DNA of 64,000 bases from Cyanidioschyzon merolae (Eukaryota): NCBI GenBank assembly GCA_000091205.1, contig AP006502.2. One strand, given 5' to 3'. A program made the position numbers and the translations under genes. The notes under the pieces are model-generated. The model was not told the DNA's origin. It did no database searches and worked only from the letters and a program-made list of their open reading frames with translations. Position 1 is the stretch's first letter, and every line of letters starts with the position of its first letter. Shown piece by piece: positions 11,181 to 62,300 of the stretch.

Positions 11181-11212
<32 letters not shown>

Positions 11213-11460
11213 TTATGACGATGGTGATGCACCTGATCATGATGCTGCTGCTATATATGCCCCCACAGATGAGACTACAGCAGCAGCAGCAGCTTACGAT
11301 GATGGTGATGCACCTGATCATGATGCTGCTGCTATATATGCCCCCACAGATGAGGCAGCAGCAGCAGCAGCAGCAGCGGCAGCTTGTGATGATGGCGATG
11401 CTACTGCTACAGACGCTACTATTCGTTTTACAGATTCTATAGATACAAGTGCGGCAGCGG
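11040..11460. repeat. Minisatellite: ~100-110 bp unit repeated ~3.5x with embedded (CAG)n tracts of variable length
   Basis: 'cttatgatgatggtgatgcacctgatcatgatgctgctgctatatatgcccccacagatgag(a)ctacagcagcag...' recurs. Both strands give long repeat-driven ORFs (polyQ/polyA, polyCys). Confidence 0.8.
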
Positions 11461-16783: not shown

Positions 16784-17040
16784 AGTCGTATCAGGGCCAG
16801 TGTGATAAACAACGACCTGAGAAACGCCAGAAAGCGCTTGATAATCGTCATCGTCACTGGAGTCAGTATCACAGGAACGGCGCATGCTCTTTTGAAGATG
16901 ATTCCGACCACTACGCAGTCATATCAGGGCCACTGTGATAAACAACGACCTGAGAAACGCCAGGAAGCGCTTGATAATCGTCATCGTCACTGGAGTCAGT
17001 ATCACAGGAACGGCGCATGCTCTTTTGAAGATGATTCCGA
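16784..17040. repeat. Tandem duplication: two ~125-bp copies (16784-16908 and 16916-17040) at ~98% identity, 7 bp apart
   Basis: A direct read shows the two copies, with a g/a difference at 'cagtcgtatcagggcc' versus 'cagtcatatcagggcc'. Copy 2 encodes the C-terminal ~40 aa and the stop codon of the BRCT gene. Confidence 0.85.
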
Positions 17041-24589: not shown

Positions 24590-24862
24590 TTAATCAGAAC
24601 AATGGCGAGCACGCCGAAAATACCTGAAGTGGGCGCTCCCAAAAAATGTCTCGCGATAGTGGAGCTTAAATATATATCTACCCACGCTCTGTCGCCTACC
24701 GGCCATTTTTGACCTGCCGCCTGCTATCGGTTTCAGTTTATCCAGGCACACCTCGAGCCTGAGAGGCTGCCTCACAAAGGTGGATCGTCTCAGCTCCTCG
24801 GGCCTCATCTTCAGGATCAAACATCGTCTAATATTGCTAGCAACTTCTGAGTCTCGGTTCAC
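24590..24862 (-). pseudogene. TnpB/Fanzor-like relic, family II, C-terminal fragment
   Basis: 'NRDSEVASNIRRCLILKMRPEELRRSTFVRQPLRLEVCLDKLKPIAGGRSKMAGRR' is a degraded RDxNAAxNI motif followed by the family-II conserved tail. Confidence 0.45.
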
Positions 24863-25467
24863 GAACTCCTTGCGTGCAGTGCCCTCTGGTTGGCCTCATC
24901 AATGCAAGGATTCCCCGAAAACATGCCATCTGTGGAATGAAGGTATCTTCATCGCCCTGCGGGCGAACAGCTTTTCTCGCCTACCTCACCTCTTGCTTTT
25001 CATTATCTTCTTCATTGCTTGCTCTTGTTTTCTTGATGATCGCCGAGAAGAGATTTTTTCGTTTTTTTTCACAGCAGCCAGCGAGGACTGTCCTCTAGGA
25101 TCCCCGACTTCCATGTGCGCACCTTTCCATTGGGGTTTTACTCTTGAAAATGAATGCCCTTCAAGAGAATCTGCTTTAAACCGCAAAAAAGCAGTTGATG
25201 ACACCCACCAGGTGGCGGAACGCAATTCAGGTTAAAGATCATAGTCTGCATCGCGTCGAGCGCGCGGATCTCGCAGGACTGACCGCTGCTGCTCGAAAAC
25301 TGCATTGATTTAGTTGCAATCCTCTTACGTGGTGTTCTACGTGGAATATTACTGCGCCTCTAAAGAGTCTGTGCGGGGTACTTTACTCGAAAAAGAGTTC
25401 AAGTTGGGTAGGAAATATCGGATACGTTATCCTAGGCGCCTGAAACGTCCGTGCCGTAGGGCGCAAT

Positions 25468-29611: not shown

Positions 29612-30590
29612 ATCGACGCCAGCCAGCGCGGGATTTTTCTGTGACTGGTTCTTCTCCCCGCTCTTATCTCCAGCCTTCAATACGTCGTGCTCTCCTATCC
29701 GTCCAGCTCTGTTGCCAGCAGTCGAGGGATGTTGATGGCAACGTTACAGCCACGATTTCGCCGCTTCCTCTTGTTTTCTACGTATTTCATGTACAGACGA
29801 AGGTTGCAATCAAGCCTTTGCTTCGCATTTTCACCCTTTTTCTGTTCAACTTTAATGCGCCCACATAGCGGTGGTAGGTGACTGCGCTCAGGTCCTCACG
29901 AATGTCCACAACGCCTAATCCGCCAAGCGCCGCCCCGTGGTACATGCGCGCTTGCTTTGTCGCCCGGTGAATGCGCTTGACGAGCGCCGGCGGCTCCCGT
30001 AGATGCCCTCCGGTCCTGCGCCCTGTGCCGTGCGCTACGCTCACGCGCTTTCCCTGAGTAGTCCCGCACGCGAGCACTCTGGCAGCTGCACGCGCAAGCG
30101 CTCGCTGTTCCATTTCAGTCGAGGATTGGTGGTGCGCGATGCTTTCCATGTTGAAATAAGTACCTGAAAAAAGCCCAAGATTGGGAACACATCCAGATAT
30201 TTCGATCAGTCTGTTCCGTCCTCGTGCACAACTGAGACGCACTGTCCACTGGAGGCGATCGCTGCGATGATTCAAGTCTTAGAACAAGATTCTTTTCCAC
30301 GCAGACAGAAGATTCGGGGCCCCCCCGGAGAACACTCGAGAGGTGTCATGCTGCCGTTGGGTGCCATTTCATCCATTGCCACAAAGAGAGGAGTTTTCAT
30401 CCTTCGGGCAGAGTCGATTATTTGGGATGACAAGTCCAGTGAACTCGCGGCCTGGGCTTGTGAACAAGCCGTCGAGGAACGACGTCGAGTTGTTTTCATC
30501 GTCACTGGAACGGCGCTCAGTGCTGAACCCACGAGTTGCCTTGCAACAGAGAGATCGAAATTCGGAGAGTGCGTGATTTGAGCATGTTAC
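29612..30590 (-). mobile_element. TnpB/Fanzor-like element, family I, copy A (truncated at both ends; ~98-99% identical to copies B and C)
   Basis: It shares the same set of ORFs as B and C (MNHRSDRLQW..., MEKNLVLR..., MIQVLEQ...). The RuvC-III region reads 'RNRGCNVAINIPRLL' on the minus strand (29725-29757). Its flanks differ from those of B and C. Confidence 0.6.
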
Positions 30591-31845
30591 ATGTAATTAG
30601 AGAATAAGATCGGAGGCTTGTACGTATAAAATGGATACTGACAGCGTTTTTTTCTATCCCCTGCTCGAGTACGTCGAGAATCGTCTCAGTATCGGTGACG
30701 TAAAGTATTCCACTGGAAAGGCCTCGTAGATGTCGCGCCCAAACAGATTACAGAGACTCCTAATGCTACGTACGAATTCGTAAGCCTCTAGAGCAGCATT
30801 TTGAATCTGGAGGCTCTGGATCAAAAATGACATTCCTAAAATATATTGAAAAATAGGAAGAAAGCAAGCTTTTCGGGGCTGCATCTCAATTTGTCAAGGC
30901 TTTAGCGAGCCGGCCAATCGTCAAAACACTACAAAGAGCATCACTCAAATCTTTAGTTAGTGGAGAAAATCGTATGAACAGCAATTTGTAATATTTCCTA
31001 TATTCCGGAAAGTCCCTTTCATTCAATACAAACTCATTTCCAGTTAATTCCATCGAGCAGAATCGAAGAGAGGGCTATATGGGTATTCCCCGCGGAAATT
31101 ATGTGCATAAGAGCCGCTGTTACTGATGTACGACAGAAAATGTGGTCATTGACGTGTGATATATGCACCAGTGAATTCTGAAACACCTGTACCAATACAT
31201 CTATTTTGTTTGCATTTTTTCTATTATTCTAAGCAAAAGCTTCCATCTTTTGGATTGGGCAGAGGCAGCAAAAACCTCTATGCTGTGAATGGTGGCATGG
31301 GAAGAAGAGCTCTAAAAGTGCAAGTCATTCATTCCGCCGTCAACAGCTGGATAAGGCACAGTTCTGATGGACCTAATCGTACACGTCGTGCATCAAAAGA
31401 AACAGTACTTACAAATTCCATAGAGGCGACTCTCTTTTCTTCCTTCAAATCCAGTTCATAATTTCCCAAAAAACACCACCAAAGAAGCCGCAGGATGAAA
31501 AGTTCTTCTACCGCGGATGCAAACGGCGATGAAGAGGCACAGATGTGCAAAGAAGAAAGCACGATCCTGTGATACTCGCGCAACCTATAGCAAATTGTCG
31601 AATTTGAACTAATACGTGAACTCTTATAATTATAATCCTTGACCTGATTTGTGTTCCGCGCATAGGTGAGCGTAATGGAGTGTTTTCTCGTGGTCTATAG
31701 GAGATACATTTGAAGTACGTTCATTTTCAAAAATAGAAAGTCCAAGTGAAAGCTGCTTATGTGGAAATATTGGGTCCTGGAGAGCCGTCATCGCCGATTA
31801 AGTGAGAAAAGAAGTTCTCGCCGACTATAGAGCGAAAAAGAGCAA

Positions 31846-32238
31846 GTGACGAAGATGAAGGCGAATAGATGGAAAGAGAGCCAAAAAAAGATATTTGCCC
31901 GACGGAACGACGACGAGAGTTTCGTGGCACAGAAGGTACCCATTCGAGGAATTTTCGGATGGGTGCGCTCAACCCACGTAAATGCATGCATGGATTTGTT
32001 GAACCGACACGTCAACGCCGCCGTCAATATCGGAAGAAATGTGGTACTAAAGAAGAGACCCAAGGAGCTGGCGCGAACCAACTTTGTGCGGCGACCTCTT
32101 ATAATCGAAGTTCACAAACAGAGGCTTAAGCCGATAGCAGGCGTCGGGTTGAAATATGCTGGGAAGCATCTGCGGGTAGTTGTTAATTTACCCACGGTCG
32201 CGACACTTTTTCGCTCCGTCGAGCAGTACCAACGATAG
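31846..32238 (+). pseudogene. TnpB/Fanzor-like relic, family II, C-terminal fragment
   Basis: 'STHVNACMDLLNRHVNAAVNIGRNVVLKKRPKELARTNFVRRPL...RLKPIAGVGLKYAGKHLR' is a RuvC-III motif with D replaced by H, plus the family-II tail. An upstream 'ICP...C' sits in another frame. Confidence 0.45.
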
Positions 32239-41885: not shown

Positions 41886-43966
41886 GGCACGCTTCCAGCG
41901 CAACAGAGAACCGCCCGCGTATTGACTGCTACGAAGTTCTTTGGCCGTGGAACGCCCGCGGTACTTAAACACAATTTGGCCCCACCGCTGCGTGGAATCG
42001 AGTGCTTGTCCAAAGCGAGGAGCAAGCGATCGAAATTATTATGCAACGTACACTAAAGATCTTAGGCGAGATCCCTGTAACATAGGTTCTTTATTGGATA
42101 GCGAAGGAGGACTGCATTCCTCCTTCTGGTAAGTCATACGACAGTACTCGGATAGCTGAGGAACCCTGAAAGAGAAAAATACGTGCGCTCAGCGCCAAAA
42201 ACCGGATTCTCATAAACAGTTTTGGTTTTACAGTAGAAAACGACCCGTTGATCACAGTGCACAAAGCAAAAGTGACGACGGTAGCCACCAGGGGCGTCTC
42301 TTTTTCTCGACAGCTTGTTCATATAGTTCTGCAAGCACTAGGATATGGTCGCAAAAAGGGTCCAATTTCATGCACGGCCATCTTCCACTGAAATCGCAAG
42401 TACAGATTTCCTGGAACGAAGCGATTGGTTTGAAGCACGGAGAAGTCGCTTTGTTTTTTCAGTCGATTAGACGTCCTTCCGATGAAATGGTCGAAGCCAA
42501 GGTAGGTTCTCGCGGAGCAGAGAACACGTTCTATGTACAATAGATCTCGAGGAGAACGAAGACGTCATCATCGGTTCTAGCTGCAGTGGAGTCATTTGGC
42601 GGCCTCAGTTTCGCTCGCAGAGAATGCTCGTCCACGAGTGCCGACTTTATCGAATCGTTGAAGACTTTTTCCCTGATGTCTGACAATGCCCTTCTGTTTG
42701 AAAATGCGATATTTCACCATTCCCTTTGTGTTCGACGTTTTCCAGACTCTATCGGGGAGTAGAACTGCTTCTCATACCTCCGAAAGCTCAGTGTTTCAAC
42801 CGCATCGAAAGAGTGTTTGCTATCGTGATATGTAATGATCGCTCCTCTGAGAGAATCCCTGAAGTACTTTGCACGGTGACACCAGGACATGCGTCGTTGT
42901 TGTTCCGCAAGTGCTTCTCCCTCTGAAAAGATCCTCATCTATGGGCAAAAAGAAGTGAGTTCATTTTCAAAAATAGAAAAATGAAGGAAAGTTATGGATA
43001 TGTAAGTCGAAGATACTGGAGGCCCGGCGTTGCCGGGATCCAACAAACGAAAAGAGTGCCGAGCCCAGAGGAACAGGAAAAGACGAAGAAGCAAAAGGGG
43101 CGCTAGATGTCGAGAGCGACACGATAGGGGACACTACGACGAGATTGTACTGAAAGCCTATCTTGTACGCCATATCAAGGATTCGCACTATCAAAAATTA
43201 AAAAAGCCATCAGAAACCGTAGCCCGTCCAACTCCAGATTCGTCGACGAAGAGACATCACCCAGGAGCACGAATGGAGATTCTGTGATCCGTGCTGTTCT
43301 GGGGCTTATCAACCCAACAGAAAATGTATCAGAGATATAAAATGGTGCTATCCCCTCATCCTGCTCTATTTCGTGTTCCTGAACCGAGAACTACAACGCA
43401 AGAAGGAGATGGAGCCGTGTGGGAAAAAATCAAGAGTCGTTGGAACGGAAGGCTTTCCTAATGGATAAGCGCTTCAACGTCGTTCCGTTATGCAACATCA
43501 AGTGGCACGTTGTGGCAACCATCGCAAGCGTCCTTTACGGCATCATGGAGATCTGTCCGGAGTTCGATGTAAGCAGGGATGAATTTACGGGTGAAAACAG
43601 GGAAACTCTTTGGAAGCGCACCTTCGATTTCAAACGTCTCAACACGAGCAAGTGAAAGGTATGCTCGGGGACGATCGAAAGCGATGGGGTATCTAAATGT
43701 GGACACTATTGGCACTTTAAATTGGATCGTTCTATTTTGTCTTCGGCTTCGCCCCCGCCGAAACGTGAAGACACAAGGAGATGGATCCTGCAACGCAGGA
43801 GGTGCAGGAGAACGACTTTGTCATCGGCGTGGAGCCCTGAAATACGAATGTCATGACCATCGCTGCTCCCATGCGTGAGGAAGATGGCACTGACGGCAAC
43901 TTACGACAAAAAGACATCCGTCTTTTAAAGTTCTCAAGAACGAGATATTATTGAGAATCGGGAATT

Positions 43967-44718
43967 ATGAATGCATGGAAAAAAAGTGAGGCATGGAGTG
44001 CAGGAGTGAAGGAGCATCGGGAAGCGATCAGCCGGGTGACGAGCCGCGGAGCGCACTTTCAAACTTCTCGTGAATTCATGAAAATTCGCGCTGCTCATGT
44101 CGCGGAGCTGTGGAGAGAGTATACAAAGTCCCGGTGGGCTCGTCAGCATATGAATCTGTATTGCTGGAAACAGCGTGCATTCGCAAAATTCTTCAATGCG
44201 TTGTGCGCTCTCACAGTTGATAAGAGTCAAAGGCTCGAAATAGCATAAACGCAGGGCCCTGTGTGCCCAGAAAAAGGAGCACACAAGCTTTGTCGAAATG
44301 AACATTCATGGATGGCACCCAGTGTCTTGTTCCGGTACGGATAGATGAATTCCGAACGTCATACGTGCACCATGAGCTGGGGTGTACAATTCAGAAGGTC
44401 GAGATGGAGCGAAGGCAGAGGAGCCCTGATGAGATAGAAAAGTACGGAGAGCTGAAAGATCATCGAACGGCGCAGAGGGCGCGAGTTCGAGGAATCCCTG
44501 CGTGAATGAGTTCCACCGGAGGCAATAAGCCAATGGAGTTCGTGAAGCGAGACTTAAACGCCGCGATCAATATCAGAAGATGTGCCCTGCTGAAGACGAG
44601 ACCTGCAGAGCTGACGCGATCCAAGTTTATGGGGCAGCCCCTTATGCCCGATACGTGCAGGAAGCAGCTGAAGCTGATGGCAGGGAGCCGATCAGAAAAG
44701 GCCGGGAGGCGCCTGTGA
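43967..44718 (+). pseudogene. TnpB/Fanzor-like relic, family II (Zn-finger region degraded; RuvC-III and tail retained)
   Basis: 'VRIDEFRTSYVHHELGC' resembles V-x-P-x-YTSQ-x-C-x-x-CG with its Cys residues lost. After a frame change comes 'EFVKRDLNAAINIRRCALLKTRPAELTRSKFMGQPL...KLMAGSRSEKAGRRL'. Confidence 0.5.
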
Positions 44719-44790
44719 GGGGGTGTGAATTTACCCCACATGGTCCTGGGACATTTTTTCTTTTACTGAGGATACTATATTTGTTTCAAA

Positions 44791-46135
44791 TTAAAATGGT
44801 CCGTTAAGCTGCGCGCACTGTTTCTGCACTTCGATTTTTCCGAACACTTTTCGATATACAGCCTCATCATCCAATGTACTGCGACCGGGGGCTCCGCTTC
44901 ATCTGTTCTTTAGGGCTCTCTGTCGTCATCTCGAAGTGTCGACTCCGGCTCCGTGCCGCTGGAGCTCGTTCAGCCACACCAACTGGGATGGTTCGCGGCG
45001 CCCCACGGGCAAGAGTTCGTGAAAGTACTGATATCACAACTTAATTTTTACTTAAGAGCTTCCACTCTATTTCTTTCCCCGACTTGCGCCATGCTCAAAT
45101 CACGCACTCTCCGAATTTCGATCTCTCTGTTGCAAGGCAACTCGTGGGTTCAGCACTGAGCGCCGTTCCAGTGACGATGAAAACAACTCGACGTCGTTCC
45201 TCGACGGCTTGTTCACAAGCCCAGGCCGCGAGTTCACTGGACTTGTCATCCCAAATAATCGACTCTGTCCGAAGGATGAAAACTCCTCTCTTTGTGGCAA
45301 TGGATGAAATGGCACCCAACGGCAGCATGACACCTCTCGAGTGTTCTCCGGGGGGCCCCCGAATCTTCTGTCTGCGTGGAAAAGAATCTTGTTCTAAGAC
45401 TTGAATCATCGCAGCGATCGCCTCCAGTGGACAGTGCGTCTCAGTTGTGCACGAGGACGGAACAGACTGATCGAAATATCTGGATGTGTTCCCAATCTTG
45501 GGCTTTTTTCAGGTACTTATTTCAACATGGAAAGCATCGCGCACCACCAATCCTCGACTGAAATGGAACAGCGAGCGCTTGCGCGTGCAGCTGCCAGAGT
45601 GCTCGCGTGCGGGACTACTCAGGGAAAGCGCGTGAGCGTAGCGCACGGCACAGGGCGCAGGACCGGAGGGCATCTACGGGAGCCGCCGGCGCTCGTCAAG
45701 CGCATTCACCGGGCGACAAAGCAAGCGCGCATGTACCACGGGGCGGCGCTTGGCGGATTAGGCGTTGTGGACATTCGTGAGGACCTGAGCGCAGTCACCT
45801 ACCACCGCTATGTGGGCGCATTAAAGTTGAACAGAAAAAGGGTGAAAATGCGAAGCAAAGGCTTGATTGCAACCTTCGTCTGTACATGAAATACGTAGAA
45901 AACAAGAGGAAGCGGCGAAATCGTGGCTGTAACGTTGCCATCAACATCCCTCGACTGCTGGCAACAGAGCTGGACGGATAGGAGAGCACGACGTATTGAA
46001 GGCTGGAGATAAGAGCGGGGAGAAGAACCAGTCACAGAAAAAGCCCGCGCTGGCTGGCGTTGGTGGCATCGGGAAGAGATCCGAAGCTGGGTTGATTCGC
46101 CCTCGTCAGCCGAGTGCAATCTTTCAATTTTTTGT
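44791..46135 (+). mobile_element. TnpB/Fanzor-like element, family I, copy B (full ~1.34-kb unit, about 99.5% or more identical to copy C)
   Basis: It has the same ORF set as A and C. The RuvC-III region 'KRKRRNRGCNVAINIPRLL' lies at 45916-45948. The 3' region 'ccagtcacagaaaaagcccgcg' lies at 46029-46050. Ends were defined by where identity with C stops. Confidence 0.65.
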
Positions 46136-47683
46136 CTCGCATGGTAAGGGGCTGTGTGGAGCGGCGAAGAAATGAGAGACGCTTCGTGACGCGCCCCGTT
46201 GCCTACAGTGCTAGGCGAATTATGCAGCCGCATACGCGCGATTTGTGAGCAAACATGCCCGTACATTCAAAATCATTCTGCGTATAGTTTATCTTAGACT
46301 GAGCCCGTACCCCTCTGGGCATACTGAGCTGAGATGCGCTCTGTCTATCATAGTACAGATCATGGAAAAAGCCGTGTCATGTGCTGCATGCAAAAAGGTA
46401 CTTTCTGCAGGAATCTTTGTTTTCTGATGCAGCGCGGTTTGAGCTTCGTTTTCAAATGGAACATTTAGTTGTAAAATATTAAGGACAACAGAGGGCCTGG
46501 CTTCATACGCGTTACCGAAGCCATTAAGGCCTAAATCCTGATGCGAAATTGCTTCTGGCCGTTTCTTGGAAAACGAACGGACTTCGAATGCTATTTTTCT
46601 GCATGTTCTTCCATTATGAGACAACAACCTTGGGACTTATCGTGCCCCTTATGTCTGCTACATGGTTTGCTATTCCAGGAGAGCCCCAACAGGAAAAATG
46701 TGCGTGAAATTCCACCGCGAATCTTTTGTGAGGCCTTGAATCATAGGGGCGCCTAAAATACAGAGTCTACGCTGCTTAAAATCCGAATGAAAATATCCTG
46801 CGCCCCTGGGAACGAGAGTGCTTTCCCGAAAAGAGGGGCCCTCTGGAGCGATTTCTTTGTTCTCTTCGATTGACAATTCTTGGAATGTGTGGATATTTTG
46901 AACGTATACGCAAAATCACGGGGAGTTACGCCCAACAAACTTGCACGCGTGAATAGTGGATGAGGTTCATTAAGGCGTAAATTTTTGGTCTTCGAGGTTC
47001 CCCTGAGCGCCTATTCCCAATCATGAAGTAAAGAATTTACATATCTCTCCTCACGCATCTAGCACTGTAAGTACACTCGCAACTTGTTTCCGAATGTATG
47101 ATCAGCCACTCTGAAGCTAGTCATGAAGAGTTCATTCGCAATGTCTGGCGCATTTTCAAGCCTTTCAAGGTCTGATACCCTCTAAATGATATGCCATGAG
47201 GAAGACGCGTCAAGTAGACTAGCACTTCCTGCGCAGTGATAGCCCACCTATTTGATTCACAAAAGAACCTTTGAGCGAAGTGAAAAATACATCGAGCTTC
47301 CGAGAAGCAGGTTCCGTACTCCGAAACGCAAACTTCAACAATGCCACGGTAATTGCCATATGGATGCCGACTATGTTGCGTGCAAGGCTCAGGAACTTGA
47401 TACAATCAAACATTTTCCACCAGGAAGAGCCTACACTCCAACCTTGTATCCAAAGCCTCACGCAGTTTGAAGAATTTCTTGTAACGATGCAACAATCGTG
47501 CTTCAGCTATTTTCTTCGTGTGAGGCCCGCAAGTATAGAAGTCAGCCCTCGCTCCCTTACATTCTCTCGGTAAAACCATTATTGAAGCTAGTTGCTGTAC
47601 GAAACAGGTTCCCAAGCAGAAGCTACACCTATAGGTGGAACTTTTAGAGTTAAGCGCTCGGTGGTGAAACCGCAACTCCCAGC

Positions 47684-48097
47684 CTAGACGTTGAAGGACT
47701 CACCACAGCCGCAGGTTCCCTTCGCATTCGGGTTCCGGAAAACAAACTCACTGGCCAGGTCGTTTTCAACGTAATCCATTTCTGTGCCAACTACGTGAAG
47801 CATAGCTCTTGGGTCTACGAGTACTCGAACCCTCCCGTCCGCAGAAACGACTTCCTCTTCGAAACGTCTCCTCTCCTTCGCGTAGTCGAGCTGGTAAGAC
47901 AGCCCATTGCAGCCGCGCTGCTTCAGGGACAGTCGAACACCGTAAGACTCGGGATGTTTTTCGAGAAGGGACCGCAAACGCTTCGCTGCGGCTTCCGTTA
48001 TAGTCATAGCGGCTCTGCTGCGACACATGGTCAGAAACAGTTGTGTGGAAATCAAAACTTTGATTGCAATCTTTCGCTTCGCTTCCGGATATGACAC
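47684..48097 (-). CDS. IscA/HesB (A-type carrier) iron-sulfur cluster assembly protein
   Basis: 'ITEAAAKRLRSLL...GVRLSLKQRGCNGLSYQL' and the C-terminus 'GTCGCGESFNV' are present. Confidence 0.8.
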   Translation of the reverse strand: MSYPEAKRKIAIKVLISTQLFLTMCRSRAAMTITEAAAKRLRSLLEKHPESYGVRLSLKQRGCNGLSYQLDYAKERRRFEEEVVSADGRVRVLVDPRAMLHVVGTEMDYVENDLASEFVFRNPNAKGTCGCGESFNV

Positions 48098-49110
48098 GTC
48101 GTCGCCTCGTCACGTTCAGCAAGGCTTGTACCATTGTACCCACATATGAGTGCTTCAACCGGTGCACTTACTGTAATTTTCGAAAAGATGCTTCGGGTTG
48201 GATATCACTCTCCAAGGCGGCTGAGATTGCGCGAACTAACCGGGACGCTGGAGCAACGGAAGCTCTCGTTCTTTCCGGAGAAGTCCACCCAAAAAGTTCC
48301 CTCAGGAGGCACTGGATAGCACACACTGTCGAAATCTGCAAAGTTGCCATCCAGAATGGCTTGCTGCCGCACGTAAACGTAGGACCACTCAGCTGGGGTG
48401 AAATGAAAGAGCTCACAAAGTTCAGCGTGAGTATGGGTCTGATGTTGGAACAAGTCACAGATAAGTTAATGGCAAGCGTGCACCGAAGAGCACCTTCGAA
48501 AGACCCCTCACTTCGCATCGAACAGTTGCATCTTGCGGGTCAGCTGAAGATACCTTTCACAACAGGAATTCTTGTCGGTCTCGGAGAAGAAGAATGTGAT
48601 TGGAAAACCTCCCTGAATTGTATAGCAGCGGTGCACAACAAATACGGGCATATCCAAGAATGCATCATACAGCCCTTTCGTCCTGGTGATCGTGGTTACA
48701 TTTCGGGCCCGAAATTGAATGCATTCCATAGCGAGGCCCTTCCGTATGTTGTGTCACTCGCTCGCAAGATACTACCGACAGAAATCGCTATACAGATTCC
48801 ACCGAATTTAGTACTGTCTGATACAGACCGCCGAAAGGGACTAGAGCTCGTGTTCCGGTGCCTCGAAGCAGGGGCGTCCGATCTCGGAGGTATTTCCCCT
48901 GTCGATGAAGTTAATCCGACCTATGCGTTTCCTAGTATTACATGGCTGAGAGAAGTTCTTTTACTAGAGGGGTTCGAGCTTATGCACCGTTTGCCTATCT
49001 ATGAGCAATATATTCCATGGATTCAGAAAGCAGAGAAATTCGAACATCTTCAAAGACTCTTTCCCGTATACAAGCAAGGCAACTCAGCCAAATCAACCCC
49101 GAAATCGTGA
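48064..49110 (+). CDS. Radical-SAM protein of the CofG/CofH (FO synthase) family, single-subunit size
   Basis: 'VTFSKACTIVPTYECFNRCTYCNF' has a C-x3-C-x-Y-C-x-F cluster, and 'DAGATEALVLSGEVHP' follows. These match CofG/CofH. MqnC/E and ThiH/HydG are lower-probability alternatives. Confidence 0.5.
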   Translation: MQSFASLPDMTRRRLVTFSKACTIVPTYECFNRCTYCNFRKDASGWISLSKAAEIARTNRDAGATEALVLSGEVHPKSSLRRHWIAHTVEICKVAIQNGLLPHVNVGPLSWGEMKELTKFSVSMGLMLEQVTDKLMASVHRRAPSKDPSLRIEQLHLAGQLKIPFTTGILVGLGEEECDWKTSLNCIAAVHNKYGHIQECIIQPFRPGDRGYISGPKLNAFHSEALPYVVSLARKILPTEIAIQIPPNLVLSDTDRRKGLELVFRCLEAGASDLGGISPVDEVNPTYAFPSITWLREVLLLEGFELMHRLPIYEQYIPWIQKAEKFEHLQRLFPVYKQGNSAKSTPKS

Positions 49111-49321
49111 TTTTTTGACAAGCTCTGATAGGAGACCTTCACAAATGAGCCCACGTATCTATAACGGCTCGCAAAATATGTGCTGCAAAGGGCGACGTGA
49201 ACATTGCTAACTAGGCGAAGATTGTTTTTCGTAGAGGGTTGGCTGAAATTAGTCAAGTTGCAAAATTTTCGAAGATTTTTACCTTTTCAGAGATGGTTTC
49301 CGTCACTTCACCAGTGTAAGC

Positions 49322-50665
49322 CAACAAATGAACGATCGCACTCGGCTGACGAGGGCGAATCAACCCAGCTTCGGATCTCTTCCCGATGCCACCAACGCCA
49401 GCCAGCGCGGGCTTTTTCTGTGACTGGTTCTTCTCCCCGCTCTTATCTCCAGCCTTCAATACGTCGTGCTCTCCTATCCGTCCAGCTCTGTTGCCAGCAG
49501 TCGAGGGATGTTGATGGCAACGTTACAGCCACGATTTCGCCGCTTCCTCTTGTTTTCTACGTATTTCATGTACAGACGAAGGTTGCAATCAAGCCTTTGC
49601 TTCGCATTTTCACCCTTTTTCTGTTCAACTTTAATGCGCCCACATAGCGGTGGTAGGTGACTGCGCTCAGGTCCTCACGAATGTCCACAACGCCTAATCC
49701 GCCAAGCGCCGCCCCGTGGTACATGCGCGCTTGCTTTGTCGCCCGGTGAATGCGCTTGACGAGCGCCGGCGGCTCCCGTAGATGCCCTCCGGTCCTGCGC
49801 CCTGTGCCGTGCGCTACGCTCACGCGCTTTCCCTGAGTAGTCCCGCACGCGAGCACTCTGGCAGCTGCACGCGCAAGCGCTCGCTGTTCCATTTCAGTCG
49901 AGGATTGGTGGTGCGCGATGCTTTCCATGTTGAAATAAGTACCTGAAAAAAGCCCAAGATTGGGAACACATCCAGATATTTCGATCAGTCTGTTCCGTCC
50001 TCGTGCACAACTGAGACGCACTGTCCACTGGAGGCGATCGCTGCGATGATTCAAGTCTTAGAACAAGATTCTTTTCCACGCAGACAGAAGATTCGGGGGC
50101 CCCCCGGAGAACACTCGAGAGGTGTCATGCTGCCGTTGGGTGCCATTTCATCCATTGCCACAAAGAGAGGAGTTTTCATCCTTCGGACAGAGTCGATTAT
50201 TTGGGATGACAAGTCCAGTGAACTCGCGGCCTGGGCTTGTGAACAAGCCGTCGAGGAACGACGTCGAGTTGTTTTCATCGTCACTGGAACGGCGCTCAGT
50301 GCTGAACCCACGAGTTGCCTTGCAACAGAGAGATCGAAATTCGGAGAGTGCGTGATTTGAGCATGGCGCAAGTCGGGGAAAGAAATAGAGTGGAAGCTCT
50401 TAAGTAAAAATTAAGTTGTGATATCAGTACTTTCACGAACTCTTGCCCGTGGGGCGCCGCGAACCATCCCAGTTGGTGTGGCTGAACGAGCTCCAGCGGC
50501 ACGGAGCCGGAGTCGACACTTCGAGATGACGACAGAGAGCCCTAAAGAACAGATGAAGCGGAGCCCCCGGTCGCAGTACATTGGATGATGAGGCTGTATA
50601 TCGAAAAGTGTTCGGAAAAATCGAAGTGCAGAAACAGTGCGCGCAGCTCAATGGACCATTTTAAT
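49322..50665 (-). mobile_element. TnpB/Fanzor-like element, family I, copy C (full ~1.34-kb unit, inverted relative to B)
   Basis: Its 162-aa, 104-aa and 61-aa ORFs are identical to those of B. The RuvC-III region is identical to B on the minus strand. Confidence 0.65.
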
Positions 50666-52309
50666 CTCTCACCGAGCTTGAACCGTCGAGAAATTCTAGC
50701 TGGAAGCGCGAAATTTGCGCGCGCGTTTGCATAGATTTTCGATCGCGATCTGAATTGTTCTCTTTATTTGGGAGCAATGTTTCATAACGTGCTTAGGCTC
50801 CTTACAAGTGTCGTGGCAGAAAACCGAACGGTCCAGTTCTGTTTGACGGGATTCTCGAACAACAATATCGCCGGAAGTTCGAGGGATTTGCATTCAGAAC
50901 AGAATATGTATTTCTTACGATTTCTTTGCTGGCAGCTTCGGGACCAGTGAGGTGGTTGGTTAATTCCAGTGAATCACTAATGTACAGCGAACCTTTATCG
51001 TTATATACTTGCACAGGAAAGCGTTTTCCTGTATTTACACTCGATTCACTAACCTCAATGGTTTGCTGTGCCATTCCATGCCAGAACCATGCTCCAGGCC
51101 AGAATACCATAAGTCTCATCTGGGTCAATTACTCTCTCTCACGGCAATACTTTAGCGTTTCAGGAGAATGGATTGACTGAGTATTGAATGATTCCCTGGG
51201 AAGTTAACTCGACTCAAAGATGCTGAACGCTTCCAATGCACAAAACATTTCCGGACTTTGATCGAGGCGCTCACTTCTCGTTGCGGAGAATATTTGAGCG
51301 AATTTTTGCTGGTAGGAGCACACCCGAGCAAGTCTCTCACCTAGCTTTGCACTCCCATTTGACGTCTGCTCAGCTTGCTGGGGATCATCTGGTGAATCAG
51401 GCTCGTTTCACTTGTTTCCCCAGCAGCAATTTCAGTTTGCATTCTGCGCTCGTAATAAGTTTACGCCGCCTTGAATTCAATGGTGGTACTCGTAGAGAAT
51501 CATCTCTGCAATCAGTTCTCGCGCTCGTAGAAGGAACAGAAGAGCATCTTTGTACGCTATAACTCCAAGATCGTCACTGTCTACCTTCGAAACACAAGGC
51601 ATATCTGCCATTTCTTTTTTTGACTCCACTGAAGAAAAATGGCGAATGAACGCTTCCTGCATCCGTACAATCGACTGCATTGCGTTCCCCAGCGCAGGTC
51701 AACTAACCTCTAACGAAGATCGTCTTCAAGAGCCAGTTGGACTTTCAGGTCCTCTCTGGATCTAACCTCCACAGCATGCCACTCAGATGGATACGGTGCT
51801 CCAACCGTCGCTATCGGTTGTAACCCCGTCATTCCAAACGTTCGTGTGCCTCCTGACGCCCATCATGCTTCACTCTAGTATAAAGCCCTCGAAAATTTGC
51901 ACACTATCATCTGGATTCTGTTCAACTCTTTCATTCCGCTCTCTTGATTTTGAGATAAGGCAACCGCGCGATGTATTTCTCTTCATTTATCTTGGACGGT
52001 TGAAAATCAGCATCGTTAGTTGAGTCAAGTTTAAGTTTCACAAAGTGCATGCAGCCTGGTCTTCCGTCGGTCTCCATTCTCCCTGCGTACTCCTTACGAT
52101 TTCCTGCCCTGTAAGGCGAAACGTCGAATCAGCTCTACCCATGATCTTCGGAAAGCTGTTCGAGTGACCCGTGCTCGCTGCCAGAGACCGGCCGTAGCCC
52201 ACTGAGTGGAACGTATAGTACAGAGGAGTCTGCTGTGATTAGTGGGCGTTGAAGTGACGAACGAGGGCCGCTTCGAGCAGACGCTTACGGAGTCGAGTGC
52301 ACCCGCATT

Positions 52310-52620
52310 GGTGGACGGAGTCTGCTTCGCTCTCGAGGGCTCTCTTGAGGCAAATATAATGGGGCGAGAGATGCAAGCAAGGCAGGTACCCCGTTAACGC
52401 CATGGTATGGATAAGACTTGTGCCGATCCTCTCGAGGGCTCTTTTGAGGCGAATATAATGGGGCGCGGAATGCAAGCAAGGCAGGTATCCCGTTGACACC
52501 ATCGTATGGATAAGACTTGTGCCGATCCTCTCGAGGGCTCTCTCGACGCGAATATAGTGGTGCGCGAATTGCAAGCAAGGCAGGTATCCCGTTGACGCCA
52601 TCGTATGGATAGGACGTGTG
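52310..52620. repeat. Tandem repeat, ~93-bp unit with at least 3 copies
   Basis: 'tgccgatcctctcgagggctct[c/t]t[t/c]gaggc[a/g]aatataatggggcg[a/c]g[a/g]gatgcaagcaaggcaggta[c/t]cccgtt[a/g]ac[g/a]ccatggtatggataagacttg' repeats. It sits in an AT-rich, gene-free stretch. Confidence 0.8.
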
Positions 52621-54682
52621 GCGATCCGAGTCCGAGATCCACTCGATAGGCGCGGGCGATCTGACGCGAGTCTCGCTCTCGGTGCGATATCGCTTCCGGC
52701 GTCGTTGGCACCTCGATCCCATCTGTCACCATCAGCTTGTCATTTGCCTCCTTCGGCACTCCAAGAAACCGTTCTATCAGTCACCACTTTTTTGGGCCAG
52801 TAAGGTGGCTAAAACGGTTCTAACTTCCAAACGGTGAACCGATTGAAGCACTCGAGATTGTCTCGCGTATCGTTTCATTTTTCAGGTTGATTCGATATTT
52901 TTCTCTTTCGTCATAGATATTCCGATTGCTGATGTGATTTCATGACGTACAAATGTTTTCTCGCAAGCGTGCGTGCAGATCTTGTATACTGCGATCAGGC
53001 CGTGTTTCACGTTCTGTCGCGAACGCTGGTAGAAGAACGAAGGATTTGTACAAAAATCCGTGTGGAATGAGGGCAGCTCGCAATGCGCATCCGGAACTTG
53101 CACGAGCATTTGCATGACGAGCTGTGCCATGGCAAGAGAAGCTATACTAGCCTTCCTCGGGTAAAAGGCTACACAATATCTGATGGGGTCGTGCATGTCA
53201 CATGTAGGAAAATTCTTCCTGTTAAAATATTTTAGTCGGTTGGCTTCGCAGAGATTCCAGACCAAACGCTCCGACCAATTGTCTTTCCTGTGCATTCTTG
53301 TCTTACACTTGGTAGAATCTTTCTCTCCATTTTCTAGCAGTATTTCGCCTTCTCTTGCGCTCAGCTTGCTGGCTTCATTGTCGTCGGTAAACTCAACATC
53401 CGTTTTTCCGCCTGATTCATACGTACCGGATGGACGGTGAGATCAAGGCTCGCTTATTGTGAGTAAATAAGATTGCATCTTTTTTCCCACATATAACTTT
53501 ACATCATCTGTTCCCTAGCGACTTTGCCCATGGAATGGGATGTGCGTTTTGGTTCCCTCGCGCGCTCGCAAAGAGAAGCAATAGTTTGTTTCAGGACAAT
53601 AGAAAGAAGAGAATGATTTGTCTACGAGCGTTTTCACGAGCACGATAGACTCGTTCTCGCAGATGGCGTCTCACTATGTGAGACGAACATGCCCTTTGTG
53701 TGATAGAAATTCGCGTTTCAGTGCGAGATCGATAATATACAGTTAATCGTGCGACAATCTCACAATGTGGCGTAATTTTTTTGCTCATCCGTTTCTTTTC
53801 AATATCGTTCATATTAACGGTACATAAACTTCACATCACTTCTTTTCTTTGGTAGCTTTTCGTAGAGAACGTAGGGAATGGAATGGATCGATGGGGGAAG
53901 ACGCGTGTAGGTACAGTTTCGCAAATTCAGGCATGAGTGCATGACGTTCAGAACAAGGGCTAAACGAAGGGAAGCTCATCAACCTTTGAACCATAGAGCG
54001 ACTGACAGACGTAATGCCATTTTTCGCAGGCTCGTAGTGACAGCATACCCTCTCCCGAAACCTCTCTCCAGTTTGCAGGATGCATTTCATTTGTTGGTTA
54101 CGAGCGAGAAAATCAAAAATAAACAAAAAGAATGCGCTAGTCAATGTGCAACAGAACTCACTGTTCTGCGCACAACCACTCTGAGCGTAACGAACACGAT
54201 TCAATCGTGTAAAGCGTGTTTTCCGGGTGCTCCCACCATCGCACGATCTCATACCAAGTTACTTGAGGAGCGTACTTAATAGATCGTTTCCCCATACCCA
54301 GACACTGTCGTATGTCACAACGGCATACCAGTGCGCTTAGGAGTCAACTGACGACAAGTCAGGGAGTATACGCGAAGGGAGCCACACCGAGTGGCTCAAA
54401 ACCGGCTCCCGCGCCAATGCGCGTAGCTCTTGTACAATGGCTGCATAACCGCTTTTCATAGAAAACCAAAATGAAACCTAAGGCGTGTTGCAGCGACCAG
54501 CAAATCATCAATACTTTTTGGGCCGATTGGCGAGGGCGACTCCATCGACCGTTACACGAATCTCCGAGGCGGCGGATCCGCGACGCCTGCGGCTGCGATT
54601 TTATCTTCTAAATAATTTCGCATCCGCACAGTTCTAGCTCACAGTTGCCGATAGTAGTTTCCGGCTCCTTAGTTTCGTTTAG

Positions 54683-61439: not shown

Positions 61440-62300
61440 CTAATAAACACTAGCCTTTGTGGCTTGTTCTGCGATTGGGTTTGCTCCCTCTAACTTATTT
61501 CGGGCTTTGAATGCACTGGTCTATCCTTTTCCTCAAAATCCATCGTCTGCAGTTCGGGGATATTGATGGCAGCGTTGAGGTCCCGATTTCGCTGCTTCCC
61601 GCAATTGTCGACTCAGTCGATGCACCGGGCGGTAGATAAGTTCAGAGCTTCGCTCTCCATTTTCACCTTCTTTATGTACAGCGTGGAGCGCATATCGCAG
61701 AGTGACATATGGCTGCAGTCAGGTATTCAAGCATTTCCGACATACCTCATTCTTCTGCGCAAGGTACCCTACGGCGCGTGCAGGCATGGTTCATCGCTCC
61801 ATCATGCCATTGACGGGCATAGAAGATGCCCTCGGTGCTCTCTTCCGTTTCCGCGTATGGTGCCGTGCGCTACGAGCATGGGGGATCCTCCCTGTGAGAA
61901 CTCTGTTCTCTGGATACGCAAGCGCGCACTGTTCCATAAGATAGAGGATTCATGGAACACAATATCGTACATGATGGAACGCGTACTCGAAGGAATATCC
62001 GGGCTGGATATCACTCTGCGAAATTTCGATACGACTAAGCTACCCTCGTGCAAAATGTCACGTACTGCCCACTGCAAGCGGTCGCCGCGTGGACTGACGT
62101 CCAAGTCCGAGACCTTTTTCCATGTAAACAAAAGAGACGAGAAAAGCAACGAGCAGATATTGAGTGCCATTTCTTCGATACCGAAGAAGAGAGGAGGACG
62201 TATTTTCGAATCGAATGGTTTCTTTGATGTGGCAAGTTTAGTGGACTTTTGGAATGAGCTTGCGAAAAAAGTCGTCTAGGGACAGCGTCGAGTGTTTTAC
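61440..62300 (-). pseudogene. TnpB/Fanzor-like element, family I, diverged copy with an intact RuvC-III motif
   Basis: The minus strand reads 'VDNCGKQRNRDLNAAINIPELQ' at 61559-61624. ORF 61802-62170(-), 'GDRLQWAVRDIL...VAHGTIRGNGREHRGHL', is homologous to 'SDRLQWTVRLSC...VAHGTGRRTGGHL' of B and C. The 3' motif 'ccagtgcattcaaagcccg' lies at 61501-61519. Confidence 0.55.

What the first reader, a model, noticed from the sequence alone, without database searches (positions are those of the whole stretch)
43967..44718. Second TnpB/Fanzor-like subfamily with a conserved ~45-aa tail after the RuvC-III motif
Three relics share a distinctive extension beyond RDxNAAxNI. At 24590-24862 (-) it is '...NIRRCLILKMRPEELRRSTFVRQPL..KLKPIAGGRSKMAGRR'. 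At 31846-32238 (+) it is 'NIGRNVVLKKRPKELARTNFVRRPL..RLKPIAGVGLKYAGKHLR'. At 43967-44718 (+) it is '...KRDLNAAINIRRCALLKTRPAELTRSKFMGQPL..KLMAGSRSEKAGRR'. Canonical TnpB ends a few residues after the motif.

A conserved, basic, 'KPIAG'-containing tail suggests an added C-terminal module, for example a nuclear localisation signal or an RNA or protein contact. All three are pseudogenised: the zinc-finger cysteines are lost, D became H in one copy, and there are frameshifts. This is therefore an older family than the one above.
Basis: seen in the sequence. Interest (0 to 1): 0.6.

Follow-up and report, generated by a model that had tools for sequence, protein, structure and literature searches.

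The report
Known red-alga Fanzor1 transposon relics
The three sequences are dead copies of CMe-1A, a Fanzor1 transposon family already described in this very genome (Cyanidioschyzon merolae 10D), and their "extra tail" is the normal C-terminus of Fanzor1 nucleases, so the finding is real but ordinary.

Summary
All three sites encode a RuvC-III motif followed by a similar tail of about 46-48 residues, far beyond chance.

The window is C. merolae 10D chromosome 20. The three sequences match the published CMe-1A Fanzor1 transposon consensus of that species (Bao & Jurka 2013), whose published protein already ends with this tail.

Copy 3 (42953-44785) is a 1.8-kb internally deleted, frameshifted copy. 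Copies 1 and 2 belong to a 0.6-kb non-autonomous derivative.

The tail does not mark a new subfamily. In 137 diverged relatives the median tail is 33 residues, and 129 carry an "RP" motif. The proline is invariant, like the catalytic D/E/D. SpuFz1, whose structure is solved, ends with the same RPxx[L/F]xR loop.

AlphaFold models the first 30 or so tail residues confidently. The last 22 or so are basic, specific to this lineage and predicted to be disordered. They show no codon periodicity. They probably overlap the element's 3'-terminal ωRNA and right end, as in ISDra2 TnpB, but this is inferred and not shown.

The missing zinc-finger cysteines are a trait of the whole clade, not decay.

Verdict: already known, low interest.

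The parts
42953..44785 (+). Copy 3: a dead CMe-1A Fanzor1 element. Consensus positions 869-1155 and 1565-3169 are present; consensus 1156-1564 is deleted.
   Evidence: blastn of the published CMe-1A consensus gives 77% over 291 nt and 77% over 1446 nt. HMM hits run colinear from profile position 5 to 614. The 3' end was set by alignment to the consensus end and by the T-run at 44748-44771.
42981..43106 (+). Relic of the N-terminus of the Fanzor1 ORF, with an NLS-like basic stretch KRVPSPEEQEKTKKQKGR (43050-43103).
   Evidence: ORF list. Matches the CMe-1 N-terminus KRKTVPSPEEQEKTKKQKRE. Coordinates.
43814..43837 (+). RuvC-I motif relic DFVIGVEP. The catalytic D has become E and a stop codon follows.
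   Evidence: Three-frame translation, coordinates. The family has VVGADPG.
44338..44361 (+). RIDEFRTS: the relocated RuvC-II glutamate motif typical of Fanzor. It is followed by YVHHELGC, with no CxxC.
   Evidence: E is invariant in 110 relatives. The relocated glutamate is described in PMC10530073.
44545..44574 (+). RuvC-III motif KRDLNAAINI.
44575..44715 (+). The tail of copy 3 (47 codons): RRCALLKTRPAELTRSKFMGQPLMPDTCRKQLKLMAGSRSEKAGRRL, with a stop at 44716-44718. The first 30 or so codons are the conserved RuvC C-terminal segment. The last 17 or so are the basic extension specific to this lineage.
   Evidence: Structure prediction of the homologous segment.
44719..44785 (+). Non-coding 3' end of copy 3. 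It has a small hairpin (GGGGT..ACCCC) and TTTTTTCTTTT, and corresponds to the last 59 nt of CMe-1A. This is the expected position of the right end and of any ωRNA 3' part.
   Evidence: Alignment to the consensus and to copies 1 and 2. Similarity to copy 2 continues about 40 nt past the stop. Folding is no more stable than shuffled sequence (z=-0.15).
24641..25243 (-). Copy 1: a short non-autonomous CMe-1A derivative (consensus ~826-969, plus ~140 nt, plus consensus ~2851 to the end). RuvC-III relic NRDSEVASNI at 24830-24859; tail at 24692-24829.
   Evidence: HMM E=2.4e-10.
31631..32211 (+). Copy 2: a second member of the same short derivative (consensus ~822-889, plus ~250 nt, plus consensus ~2901 to the end). 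RuvC-III relic NRHVNAAVNI (D->H) at 32002-32031; tail at 32032-32175.
   Evidence: Aligns with copy 1 over 537 nt at 65%.. HMM E=4.8e-10.
51155..53442 (-). A fourth, far more decayed Fanzor1-like relic with the same tail architecture (..RKCFVHWKRSASLSRVNFPGNH..). It is related, but assignment to CMe-1A is not secure.
   Evidence: Colinear weak HMM hits from profile 45 to 599, translation, tblastn with P0102 and P0014.

Best explanation
The three sequences are decayed copies of CMe-1A. This is the Fanzor1-carrying transposon family of Cyanidioschyzon merolae 10D that Bao & Jurka described in 2013 (about 150 copies, roughly 80% identical to the consensus). Copy 3 is an internally deleted, frameshifted copy of the full element. 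Copies 1 and 2 belong to a 0.6-kb deletion derivative that spread on its own.

The 'tail' is the ordinary C-terminus of the encoded RNA-guided nuclease. It has two parts.

(1) About 30 residues directly after the last RuvC helix (RRCxxLxxRPxxLxRxxFxGQPLxVE). This is a structured, pan-Fanzor1 segment, with the proline as invariant as the catalytic residues. [quoted passage not shown] An arginine of that loop (R631) sits in the groove of the DNA loaded on the RuvC site. I infer that this part closes the nuclease lobe and helps hold the substrate DNA.

(2) About 17-22 further residues that are basic, specific to the Cyanidioschyzon lineage, and predicted to be disordered. Their DNA lies in the last 120 nt or so of the element. 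They are probably kept mainly at the nucleotide level, because they overlap the right end and the ωRNA scaffold, as the disordered C-terminal domain of ISDra2 TnpB does.

Shown here: the identity of the family, the two-part conservation and order/disorder pattern, and the pseudogene state. Inferred: the DNA-contact role of part 1 and the ωRNA overlap of part 2.
For: Genome and family:
- Eight window ORFs are exact matches to C. merolae 10D proteins BAM83225-BAM83243 on a 1.62-Mb contig.
- The published CMe-1A consensus aligns to copy 3 at 77% over 1737 nt, and to both ends of copies 1 and 2.
- The published CMe-1 protein ends ...NIRRCAVLEKRPPELTRENFVGQPLKVELYEKKLEAVVGGRSKKTGRRLHVSWRRFV.
- There are 127 close homologues with open frames and 433 related stretches in hot-spring metagenomes.

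Fanzor1 membership:
- PDB profile hit to SpuFz1, E=9.7e-9.
- Foldseek hit to SpuFz, E=5e-21, TM 0.63-0.73.

Part 1 of the tail:
- 129 of 137 representatives have RP about 8 residues after the motif; median tail 33 residues.
- P668 is invariant, alongside D439, E605 and D651. R667 and R673 are at least 90% conserved.
- pLDDT is 91-97 over the whole 32-residue tail of P0102 and 75-94 for residues 371-400 of P0002.
- SPu-1 ends GRPEVFSRSVPAVA. MDe, ROr and PBl Fanzor1 proteins carry the same motif.
- R631 of the C-terminus loop contacts DNA in SpuFz1 (PMC11423790).

Part 2 of the tail:
- pLDDT is below 50 for residues 404-425 of P0002.
- The last 19 codons have dN/dS 0.75 and dS 0.31, against core values of 0.19 and 0.57.
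- They show no codon periodicity: diversity 0.218 at positions 1+2 and 0.217 at four-fold sites.
- Four-fold diversity across the whole tail is 0.223 against 0.306 in the core (permutation p=0.02).
- Only 59 nt follow the stop codon, and 38 copies align exactly to the consensus end.
- The ISDra2 TnpB precedent. The GtFz1 ωRNA overlaps 17 codons.
Against: The ωRNA overlap of part 2 is not demonstrated:
- RNAalifold finds no consensus structure in 57 3' ends.
- Candidate helices inside the ORF show one-sided, pair-breaking changes.
- The named post-stop hairpins give only weak covariation: score 0.148 against 0.132, reached by 33 of 500 shuffles.
- The 59 nt after the stop evolve at about the neutral rate (0.318).
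- Folding z-scores are only -1.8 for metagenome copies that align to the consensus 3' end, and about 0 for the window copies.
- Rfam finds nothing.

The equivalence of the conserved tail arginine with SpuFz1 R631 rests on counting residues in a consensus sequence, not on a superposition. The reduced synonymous diversity rests on 27 four-fold sites. Nothing measures whether intact family members are active.
Confidence: 0.8

Rival explanations
1. One reading: a distinct second Fanzor subfamily defined by an added C-terminal module that acts as a nuclear localisation signal, or as a new RNA or protein contact.
For: The Cyanidioschyzon family does have a tail about 20 residues longer than its relatives (54 against a median of 33). 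The extra part is rich in K and R (GGRSKKTGRRLHVSWRRFV) and disordered, as many NLSs are. Fanzors are reported to have acquired NLSs.
Against: The conserved part of the tail, including RP..L.R, is pan-Fanzor1 and present in SpuFz1, so it defines no subfamily. The family is the published CMe-1. A classical basic stretch lies at the N-terminus of CMe-1, and the N-terminus is where Fanzor NLSs were mapped experimentally. The extension shows almost no protein-level constraint (dN/dS 0.75). The 'KPIAG' string occurs only in the two short non-coding derivatives; the consensus has EAVVG and copy 3 has KLMAG.
Confidence: 0.1
2. The tail similarity is only shared ancestry of non-coding DNA. On this view there is no protein constraint, and the apparent peptide is a by-product of a conserved transposon end or RNA.
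For: Copies 1 and 2 are non-coding derivatives. DNA similarity runs about 40 nt past the stop codon. Synonymous diversity in the tail is lower than in the core. The last 19 codons show no codon periodicity.
Against: The proximal tail is conserved in proteins with no detectable DNA similarity (26-47% amino-acid identity to the reference protein P0102), and its proline is invariant. It is modelled with pLDDT above 90. Among the window copies and the consensus, pS exceeds pN in every pair, and there are no indels in 60 codons. Diversity at positions 1+2 in the tail (0.183) is well below the neutral level (0.31). This reading can hold only for the distal third, where it merges with the best explanation.
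Confidence: 0.07
3. The short elements (copies 1 and 2) encode a mini-protein made of the RuvC-III helix plus the tail. That would explain why the tail frame survives in them.
For: Copy 2 has a 130-codon ATG ORF (31846-32238) covering the tail. Copy 1 against copy 2 gives NG86 ω=0.49.
Against: Copy 1 and the metagenome members L004 and L033 have stops inside or just upstream of this frame. They have also lost the invariant RP (TSP) and the catalytic D. A RuvC-III helix without the rest of the domain has no plausible fold. ω below 1 by NG86 on 47 synonymous sites is weak evidence.
Confidence: 0.03

Closest known systems
CMe-1 protein / CMe-1A transposon of Cyanidioschyzon merolae (Bao & Jurka 2013, Mob DNA 4:12; Repbase)
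   Same: Same species and strain and the same family. Copy 3 is 77% identical to the consensus over 1.7 kb, matching the reported divergence of about 80%. The published 734-residue consensus protein ends with the same tail. It has the same HH..C in place of a CxxC finger.
   Different: The window copies are dead. Copies 1 and 2 represent a 0.6-kb derivative (5' leader plus 3' 330 nt) that the paper does not describe; its TE-N2_CMe is the unrelated 5' 635-bp module. The window copies stop 5-8 codons earlier than the consensus, and their last 60 nt or so differ from it.
SpuFz1, Spizellomyces punctatus Fanzor1 (PDB 8GKH, 9CEU-9CEZ)
   Same: Same fold (Foldseek E=5e-21, TM 0.63-0.73 for the relative P0102) and a profile hit at E=9.7e-9. 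It has the RuvC D, relocated E and D. It also has a C-terminal RPxx[F/L]xR loop after RuvC-III (GRPEVFSR), reported to touch the DNA bound on RuvC through R631.
   Different: Only 16-17% identity. SpuFz1 keeps the CCCC zinc finger and the CMe-1 clade does not. The SpuFz1 tail is 24 residues against 47-54 here. SPu-1 has 33-bp terminal inverted repeats and TA duplications, whereas CMe-1A has none reported. The SpuFz1 ωRNA lies wholly downstream of the stop.
C-terminal domain of ISDra2 TnpB (residues 376-408; Nakagawa et al. 2023)
   Same: A tail of about 33 residues after the RuvC domain. It is poorly conserved, disordered and dispensable for cleavage, and its codons overlap the functional part of the ωRNA. 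The distal 22 residues of CMe-1 behave alike: disordered, dN/dS 0.75, no codon periodicity.
   Different: The ISDra2 tail has no conserved RP loop. The ωRNA overlap is proven there and only inferred here. It is bacterial IS200/IS605 rather than a eukaryotic element of unknown class.
'Ghost loci' of Spizellomyces punctatus (Saito et al. 2023)
   Same: Short (about 550 nt) non-coding relatives of Fanzor loci that keep the element ends and the ωRNA-like 3' region. Copies 1 and 2 and their metagenome relatives are 0.55-0.6 kb and keep the 5' leader and the 3' 330 nt or so.
   Different: No inverted repeats are seen here. The C. merolae short form still contains the last 85 or so codons of the ORF. 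No expression data exist.

Membership tests
CMe-1A transposon family (C. merolae) | Nucleotide similarity to the published 3169-bp consensus at the family's typical level (~80%), in the same host genome. | tested here: met
   Copy 3 is 77% identical over 291 + 1446 nt. Copies 1 and 2 are 71-75% identical over both terminal segments. The host is C. merolae 10D by exact protein matches.
CMe-1A transposon family (C. merolae) | Encodes the CMe-1 Fanzor1 protein. | tested here: met
   The stitched copy-3 translation is 47-55% identical at 99-100% query coverage to the five best full-coverage homologues, P0001, P0002, P0003, P0006 and P0008, whose sequences match the published CMe-1. In the window only relics remain.
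Fanzor1 | RuvC triad: D in RuvC-I, relocated glutamate in the D-E-[FY]-[RK]-T-[ST] motif, and RD in RuvC-III. | tested here: met
   D439, E605 and D651 are invariant in 110 relatives. Copy 3 keeps the E and RuvC-III D but has D->E at RuvC-I. Copy 2 has D->H at RuvC-III. The family meets the test; the window copies are inactivated.
Fanzor1 | Fold of the solved Fanzor1 nucleases (WED, REC, RuvC, TNB). | tested here: met
   The AlphaFold model of P0102 (pLDDT 88.6) has SpuFz, PpFz and GtFz as its top seven PDB hits, E=5e-21 to 7e-16; Cas12f follows at about 1e-6. This was tested on a relative about 33% identical to copy 3, not on the relic itself.
Fanzor1 | C4 (CCCC) zinc finger between the relocated Glu and RuvC-III (the Bao & Jurka motif; seen in SpuFz1). 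| tested here: not met
   Only 6 of 150 clade members have both CxxC pairs, and most have 0-2 cysteines there. CMe-1 has YTHHELGC...VRGLLALV. Bao & Jurka nevertheless classed CMe-1 as Fanzor1, so the clade is a finger-less variant.
Fanzor1 | Multi-copy, transposon-borne gene in a eukaryotic nuclear genome. | tested here: met
   The window is a nuclear chromosome of C. merolae with three or four copies in 64 kb. About 150 copies are reported.
Fanzor1 | ωRNA encoded at the 3' end of the element, with the guide starting at the right-end boundary. | tested here: inconclusive
   The 3' boundary is sharp (38 copies end at consensus 3169). But there is no RNAalifold structure, only weak covariation, z of about -1.8 and no Rfam family. 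RNA data are needed.
Fanzor1 | N-terminal disordered region with a nuclear localisation signal. | tested here: inconclusive
   CMe-1 has KKRK..KKQKR at residues ~18-36, and copy 3 keeps KRVPSPEEQEKTKKQKGR. Residues 1-77 of P0102 are disordered. No NLS predictor or experiment was run.
IS200/IS605-type TnpB (prokaryotic) | Canonical RuvC-II glutamate, a neighbouring TnpA, a prokaryotic host. | tested here: not met
   The host is eukaryotic. The canonical position reads VVAYGAG and the Glu is relocated. No transposase gene was found in the element. The best PDB matches are Fanzor1; no TnpB structure appears among the 50 listed Foldseek PDB matches.

The most novel reading that the evidence does not exclude
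The 0.6-kb derivatives (copies 1 and 2, plus relatives on independent metagenome contigs) may be 'ghost' elements. On this reading they survive because they keep the two ends and an ωRNA gene that overlaps the last 30 or so codons of the Fanzor ORF. The distal tail would then be a true dual-coding stretch, in which RNA or right-end function rather than the peptide is what selection sees. This would occur in a zinc-finger-less Fanzor1 clade of a red alga whose transposition mechanism is still unknown.
Probability: 0.3. Interest if true: 0.4.

Novelty: already known. Interest (0 to 1): 0.15.

Why it matters
It matters little for discovery. The family, its host genome and its protein sequence, tail included, were published in 2013. 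The conserved part of the tail is visible in solved Fanzor1 structures.

There are three modest points of use.
- The RPxx[L/F]xR loop after RuvC-III is as conserved as the catalytic residues across thousands of Fanzor1 relatives. It deserves to be treated as part of the domain when truncating or engineering these compact nucleases.
- A large Fanzor1 clade, CMe-1 included, lacks the CCCC zinc finger that is usually listed as defining.
- C. merolae is a tractable, intron-poor model alga. With its short derivatives it could be used to test whether the end of a Fanzor ORF and its ωRNA share sequence, as in bacterial TnpB.

Tried and rejected
- Pfam scan of the stitched copy-3 protein and of six homologues found nothing significant. 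Only sub-threshold Cas12f1-like_TNB hits appeared (E=0.017 and 0.071), and a precomputed DUF8286 tag.
- Single-sequence phmmer of P0102 against the PDB gave no hit. A profile was needed.
- The look-up of encoding contigs with two window ORFs returned nothing on record. The exact look-up by cluster worked instead.
- RNAalifold on 57 element 3' ends gave an empty structure.
- A column-pair scan for helices was uninformative, because any complementary stretch in an 88%-conserved family scores high.
- The long-range helix CAGTAGT/ACTACTG and the hairpins CCGGTC/GACTGG and AGAC/GTCT, suggested by the minimum-free-energy fold of the consensus, show mostly pair-breaking single changes. I dropped them.
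- The post-stop hairpins give only weak covariation.
- Folding energies of the window 3' ends do not differ from shuffled sequence.
- Rfam and tRNA scans of the window were empty.
- The mini-protein idea for the short elements was rejected.
- 'Family I' (44790-46148 and its copies) is not recognised by the Fanzor1 clade HMM. I did not pursue it.
- I did not determine target-site duplications, a target-adjacent motif (TAM) or the transposase class. The literature also reports none.
Full report
**1. What is in the sequence**

The window has no long bacterial-style gene array. It carries long intron-free eukaryotic ORFs (BRCT, RHD3 GTPase, CDC50, protein kinase, PDH E1) at about 52% G+C. Eight of these ORFs are exact matches to annotated proteins of Cyanidioschyzon merolae strain 10D (BAM83225-BAM83243, locus tags such as CYME_CMT247C) on a 1,621,617-bp contig. 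The window is therefore C. merolae 10D nuclear DNA.

- Copy 3: KRDLNAAINI at 44545-44574, then 47 codons to a stop at 44716-44718.
- Copy 1 (minus strand): NRDSEVASNI at 24830-24859, tail at 24692-24829.
- Copy 2: NRHVNAAVNI at 32002-32031, tail at 32032-32175.

The similarity is far beyond chance. blastn gives E=5e-26 and 5e-14. A family HMM gives E=2e-15, 2e-10 and 5e-10.

**2. What the three sequences are**

A stitched translation of copy 3 finds 127 homologues. The best full-coverage ones are 47-55% identical, and many have open frames of 413-593 residues. All come from JGI and ENA metagenomes.

A literature search led to Bao & Jurka 2013 (PMC3627910). They described one Fanzor1 family in C. 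merolae, CMe-1A. It has about 150 copies roughly 80% identical to a 3169-bp consensus, no terminal inverted repeats, and no determinable target-site duplication. Some copies are still intact.

Their supplementary files hold the consensus DNA and the 734-residue CMe-1 protein. The protein ends ...FVNRDFNAAINIRRCAVLEKRPPELTRENFVGQPLKVELYEKKLEAVVGGRSKKTGRRLHVSWRRFV. That is the tail of the finding.

blastn of the consensus against the window shows three things:
- Copy 3 covers consensus 869-1155 (window 42953-43236) and 1565-3010 (43238-44642) at 77%. It is an internally deleted copy running to about 44785. It has at least three frame changes, at least five in-frame stops, and D->E at RuvC-I.
- Copy 1 holds consensus 826-969 and 2851-3012.
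- Copy 2 holds consensus 822-889 and 2901-3020.

Copies 1 and 2 align with each other across the junction (537 nt, 65%). The same architecture is found on independent metagenome contigs (L004, L012, L033). They are therefore members of a 0.6-kb non-autonomous derivative that multiplied as such. None of these short copies keeps an open frame or the invariant residues.

A fourth, much more decayed Fanzor1-like relic lies at 51155-53442 on the minus strand.

**3. Is it Fanzor1?**

Pfam does not recognise the family, and a single sequence finds nothing in the PDB. A profile of 18 members does hit SpuFz1 (8GKH) at E=9.7e-9. A profile search of 1.84 billion representatives finds 4170 relatives, of which 569 have E<=1e-30. 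Most are 600-650 residues long.

An AlphaFold model of a full-length relative (P0102, 110-sequence alignment, pLDDT 88.6, pTM 0.84) has the solved Fanzor1 structures as its best PDB matches. These are SpuFz (E=5e-21, TM 0.63-0.73), PpFz and GtFz. Cas12f follows at about 1e-6.

The catalytic D, the relocated glutamate in DEFRTS, and the RuvC-III D are invariant. This agrees with the rearranged site reported for Fanzors (PMC10530073).

One listed hallmark is missing. Only 6 of 150 clade members have the two CxxC pairs of the zinc finger, and intact CMe-1 reads YTHHELGC...VRGLLALV. The 'lost cysteines' are therefore a trait of the clade. They are not evidence of decay.

**4. Is the tail special?**

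It is not. After the ...N[IML] of RuvC-III, 137 representatives have a median of 33 further residues (interquartile range 32-42). In 129 of them 'RP' follows about 8 residues later. The consensus is RRCxxLxxRPxxLxRxxxxxxLxxxxGKxIK. In the 110-sequence alignment the proline is one of only five invariant columns. Three of the other four are the catalytic residues. The flanking arginines are at least 90% conserved.

Fanzor1 proteins from unrelated hosts in Bao & Jurka's set show the same pattern:
- Hessian fly MDe-4: ...GRPLPRNYL...RFPRR.
- Rhizopus and Phycomyces: ...RPERFCR....
- Chlamydomonas, Volvox and Chlorella...RPxxLxR....

SPu-1, the consensus of SpuFz1, ends NMLMIVQSMLDGHGRPEVFSRSVPAVA.

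Even bacterial ISDra2 TnpB has a 33-residue C-terminal domain after RuvC (PMC10097598). The premise that canonical proteins stop a few residues after the motif is wrong.

**5. Anatomy of the tail**

AlphaFold places the whole 32-residue tail of P0102 with pLDDT 91-97. It comprises the last RuvC helix (650-663), a turn at the RP motif, an extended stretch, and a terminal β-strand (684-688).

For the Cyanidioschyzon protein P0002, residues 371-400 (RRCAVLETRPPEWTRENFVGQPLKVELYKK) have pLDDT 75-94. Residues 404-425 (LKLVVGGRSKQTRRRLRFSWRRFV) fall below 50.

The tail therefore has two parts: a structured, family-wide segment, and a basic, disordered extension of about 20 residues that only this lineage has.

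Evolutionary rates in 61 metagenome copies agree with this split:

| Region | dN/dS | dS | Diversity, positions 1+2 | Diversity, four-fold sites |
|---|---|---|---|---|
| Core (consensus 2500-2947) | 0.19 | 0.57 | 0.116 | 0.306 |
| Whole tail | 0.49 | 0.36 | 0.183 | 0.223 |
| Last 19 codons | 0.75 | 0.31 | 0.218 | 0.217 |

The four-fold difference between core and tail has permutation p=0.02. In the last 19 codons there is no codon periodicity.

Among the three window copies and the consensus, pS exceeds pN in every pair (ω 0.25-0.81), and there is no indel in 60 codons.

**6. How it most likely works**

Proximal part. [quoted passage not shown] I counted from the 633-residue SPu-1 consensus (R621 and R627). 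I then allowed for the two extra residues seen in the PDB sequence. On that count, R631 falls in the RPEVFSR loop, most likely at its second arginine.

I therefore infer that the conserved RPxx[L/F]xR segment is an integral strap of the nuclease lobe, and that it presents an arginine to the substrate DNA. This is an inference from homology. I could not superpose coordinates.

Distal part. Only 59 nt follow the stop codon, and the element end is sharp: 38 copies align exactly to consensus 3169. Fanzor and TnpB ωRNAs are made from the 3' end, with the guide starting at that boundary. The GtFz1 ωRNA overlaps 17 codons. In ISDra2 the disordered, dispensable C-terminal domain is encoded by the functional part of the ωRNA.

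Four observations fit the same arrangement here:
- The extension is predicted to be disordered.
- It lacks codon periodicity.
- Its synonymous diversity is lowered.
- The short derivatives retain this region.

The direct RNA evidence, however, is weak:
- RNAalifold finds no consensus structure.
- Helices inside the ORF do not covary.
- Post-stop hairpins give a covariation score of 0.148 against 0.132, reached by 33 of 500 shuffles.
- The post-stop 59 nt drift at the neutral rate.
- Folding z-scores are -1.8 for metagenome copies that align to the consensus 3' end, and about 0 for the window relics.
- Rfam has no match.

I put this step at roughly even odds.

**7.

- 'Older than the family above' is supported in the sense of copy age. 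These copies are 65-77% identical to each other and to the consensus, while the other repeat (44790-46148, 49306-50665, 29616-30586) is 99.2-99.7% identical.
- The NLS proposal has no support. CMe-1 has a classical basic stretch at its N-terminus, where Fanzor NLSs were mapped. The C-terminal extension is nearly unconstrained as protein.
- 'KPIAG' occurs only in the two short derivatives.

**8. Verdict**

The family and its tail are already in the literature for this very genome, and the conserved part of the tail is a standard, structurally resolved feature of Fanzor1.

What remains mildly new:
- The explicit two-part description of the tail.
- The near-absolute conservation of the RP loop.
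- The finger-less nature of this large clade.
- The short ghost-like derivative.

Interest is low.

Noticed in passing
Two 1361-bp copies, 99.2% identical, sit in inverted orientation around about 3.1 kb that includes ORF 48064-49110. A third, 971-bp copy is 99.7% identical. The first copy starts only about 5-20 nt after the 3' end of CMe-1A copy 3. Its 'NVAINIPRLL' string is not recognised by the Fanzor1 clade HMM.
   Followed up: partly
window 51155-53442 (-): A fourth, very decayed Fanzor1-like relic. It gives colinear weak HMM hits from profile 45 to 599, and the tail is still discernible (RKCFVHWKRSASLSRVNFPGNH).
   Followed up: partly
window 25243-24641 (-) and 31631-32211 (+); L004 5554-5991, L012 7090-7424, L033 5358-5617: A 0.55-0.6-kb non-autonomous derivative of CMe-1A (5' leader and first ~20 codons, plus ~140-250 nt, plus the last ~85 codons and the 3' end). 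It occurs in the window and on independent hot-spring metagenome contigs. It resembles the 'ghost loci' of S. punctatus. No copy has an open frame.
   Followed up: partly
proteins P0001-P0265 (relatives of the finding): This large Fanzor1 clade (4170 representatives at E<=1e-3) lacks the CCCC zinc finger that is usually given as a defining motif. Only 6 of 150 members have both CxxC pairs.
   Followed up: partly
proteins P0006, P0007, P0018, P0025 and others (metagenome CMe-1 homologues): Between the WED-like region and RuvC-I these proteins carry one to six tandem copies of an acidic repeat of about 22 residues (KDEDEKEADPATQEVEDNDLVV). Each copy ends in a pseudo-'DNDLVV' that mimics the start of the RuvC-I strand.
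   Followed up: no
window 7057-7259 (-): A fragment 74% identical to CMe-1A consensus 85-282, which is the separate TE-N2_CMe module reported by Bao & Jurka. In metagenome loci, CMe-1A 5' ends fall into two classes, starting at consensus 1 (26 hits) or at ~625-675 (27 hits). The module is therefore optional.
   Followed up: partly
window 61493-61612 (-) and 353-613 (+): Two isolated scraps with weak Fanzor similarity. The first reads RNRDLNAAINIPELQTMDFEEKDRPVHSKPEIS, just upstream of the MAP kinase kinase gene (59361-61247, minus strand). The second matches profile positions 505-547 (E=0.012).
   Followed up: no
L002-L081, last ~25 nt of CMe-1A: The element's terminal hairpin exists in two sequence versions that pair in different registers: CGTCGTTCGA-CTT-TCGAACGGCG and CGTTTTTC-TTTT-GAAAGGCG. 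A terminal stem is thus kept despite different sequence, but the formal covariation test is only weakly positive.
   Followed up: partly
window 11094-11401, 16782-17040, 52330-52627: Short local tandem duplications (90-98% identical, 125-200 bp), two of them inside or next to long ORFs.
   Followed up: no
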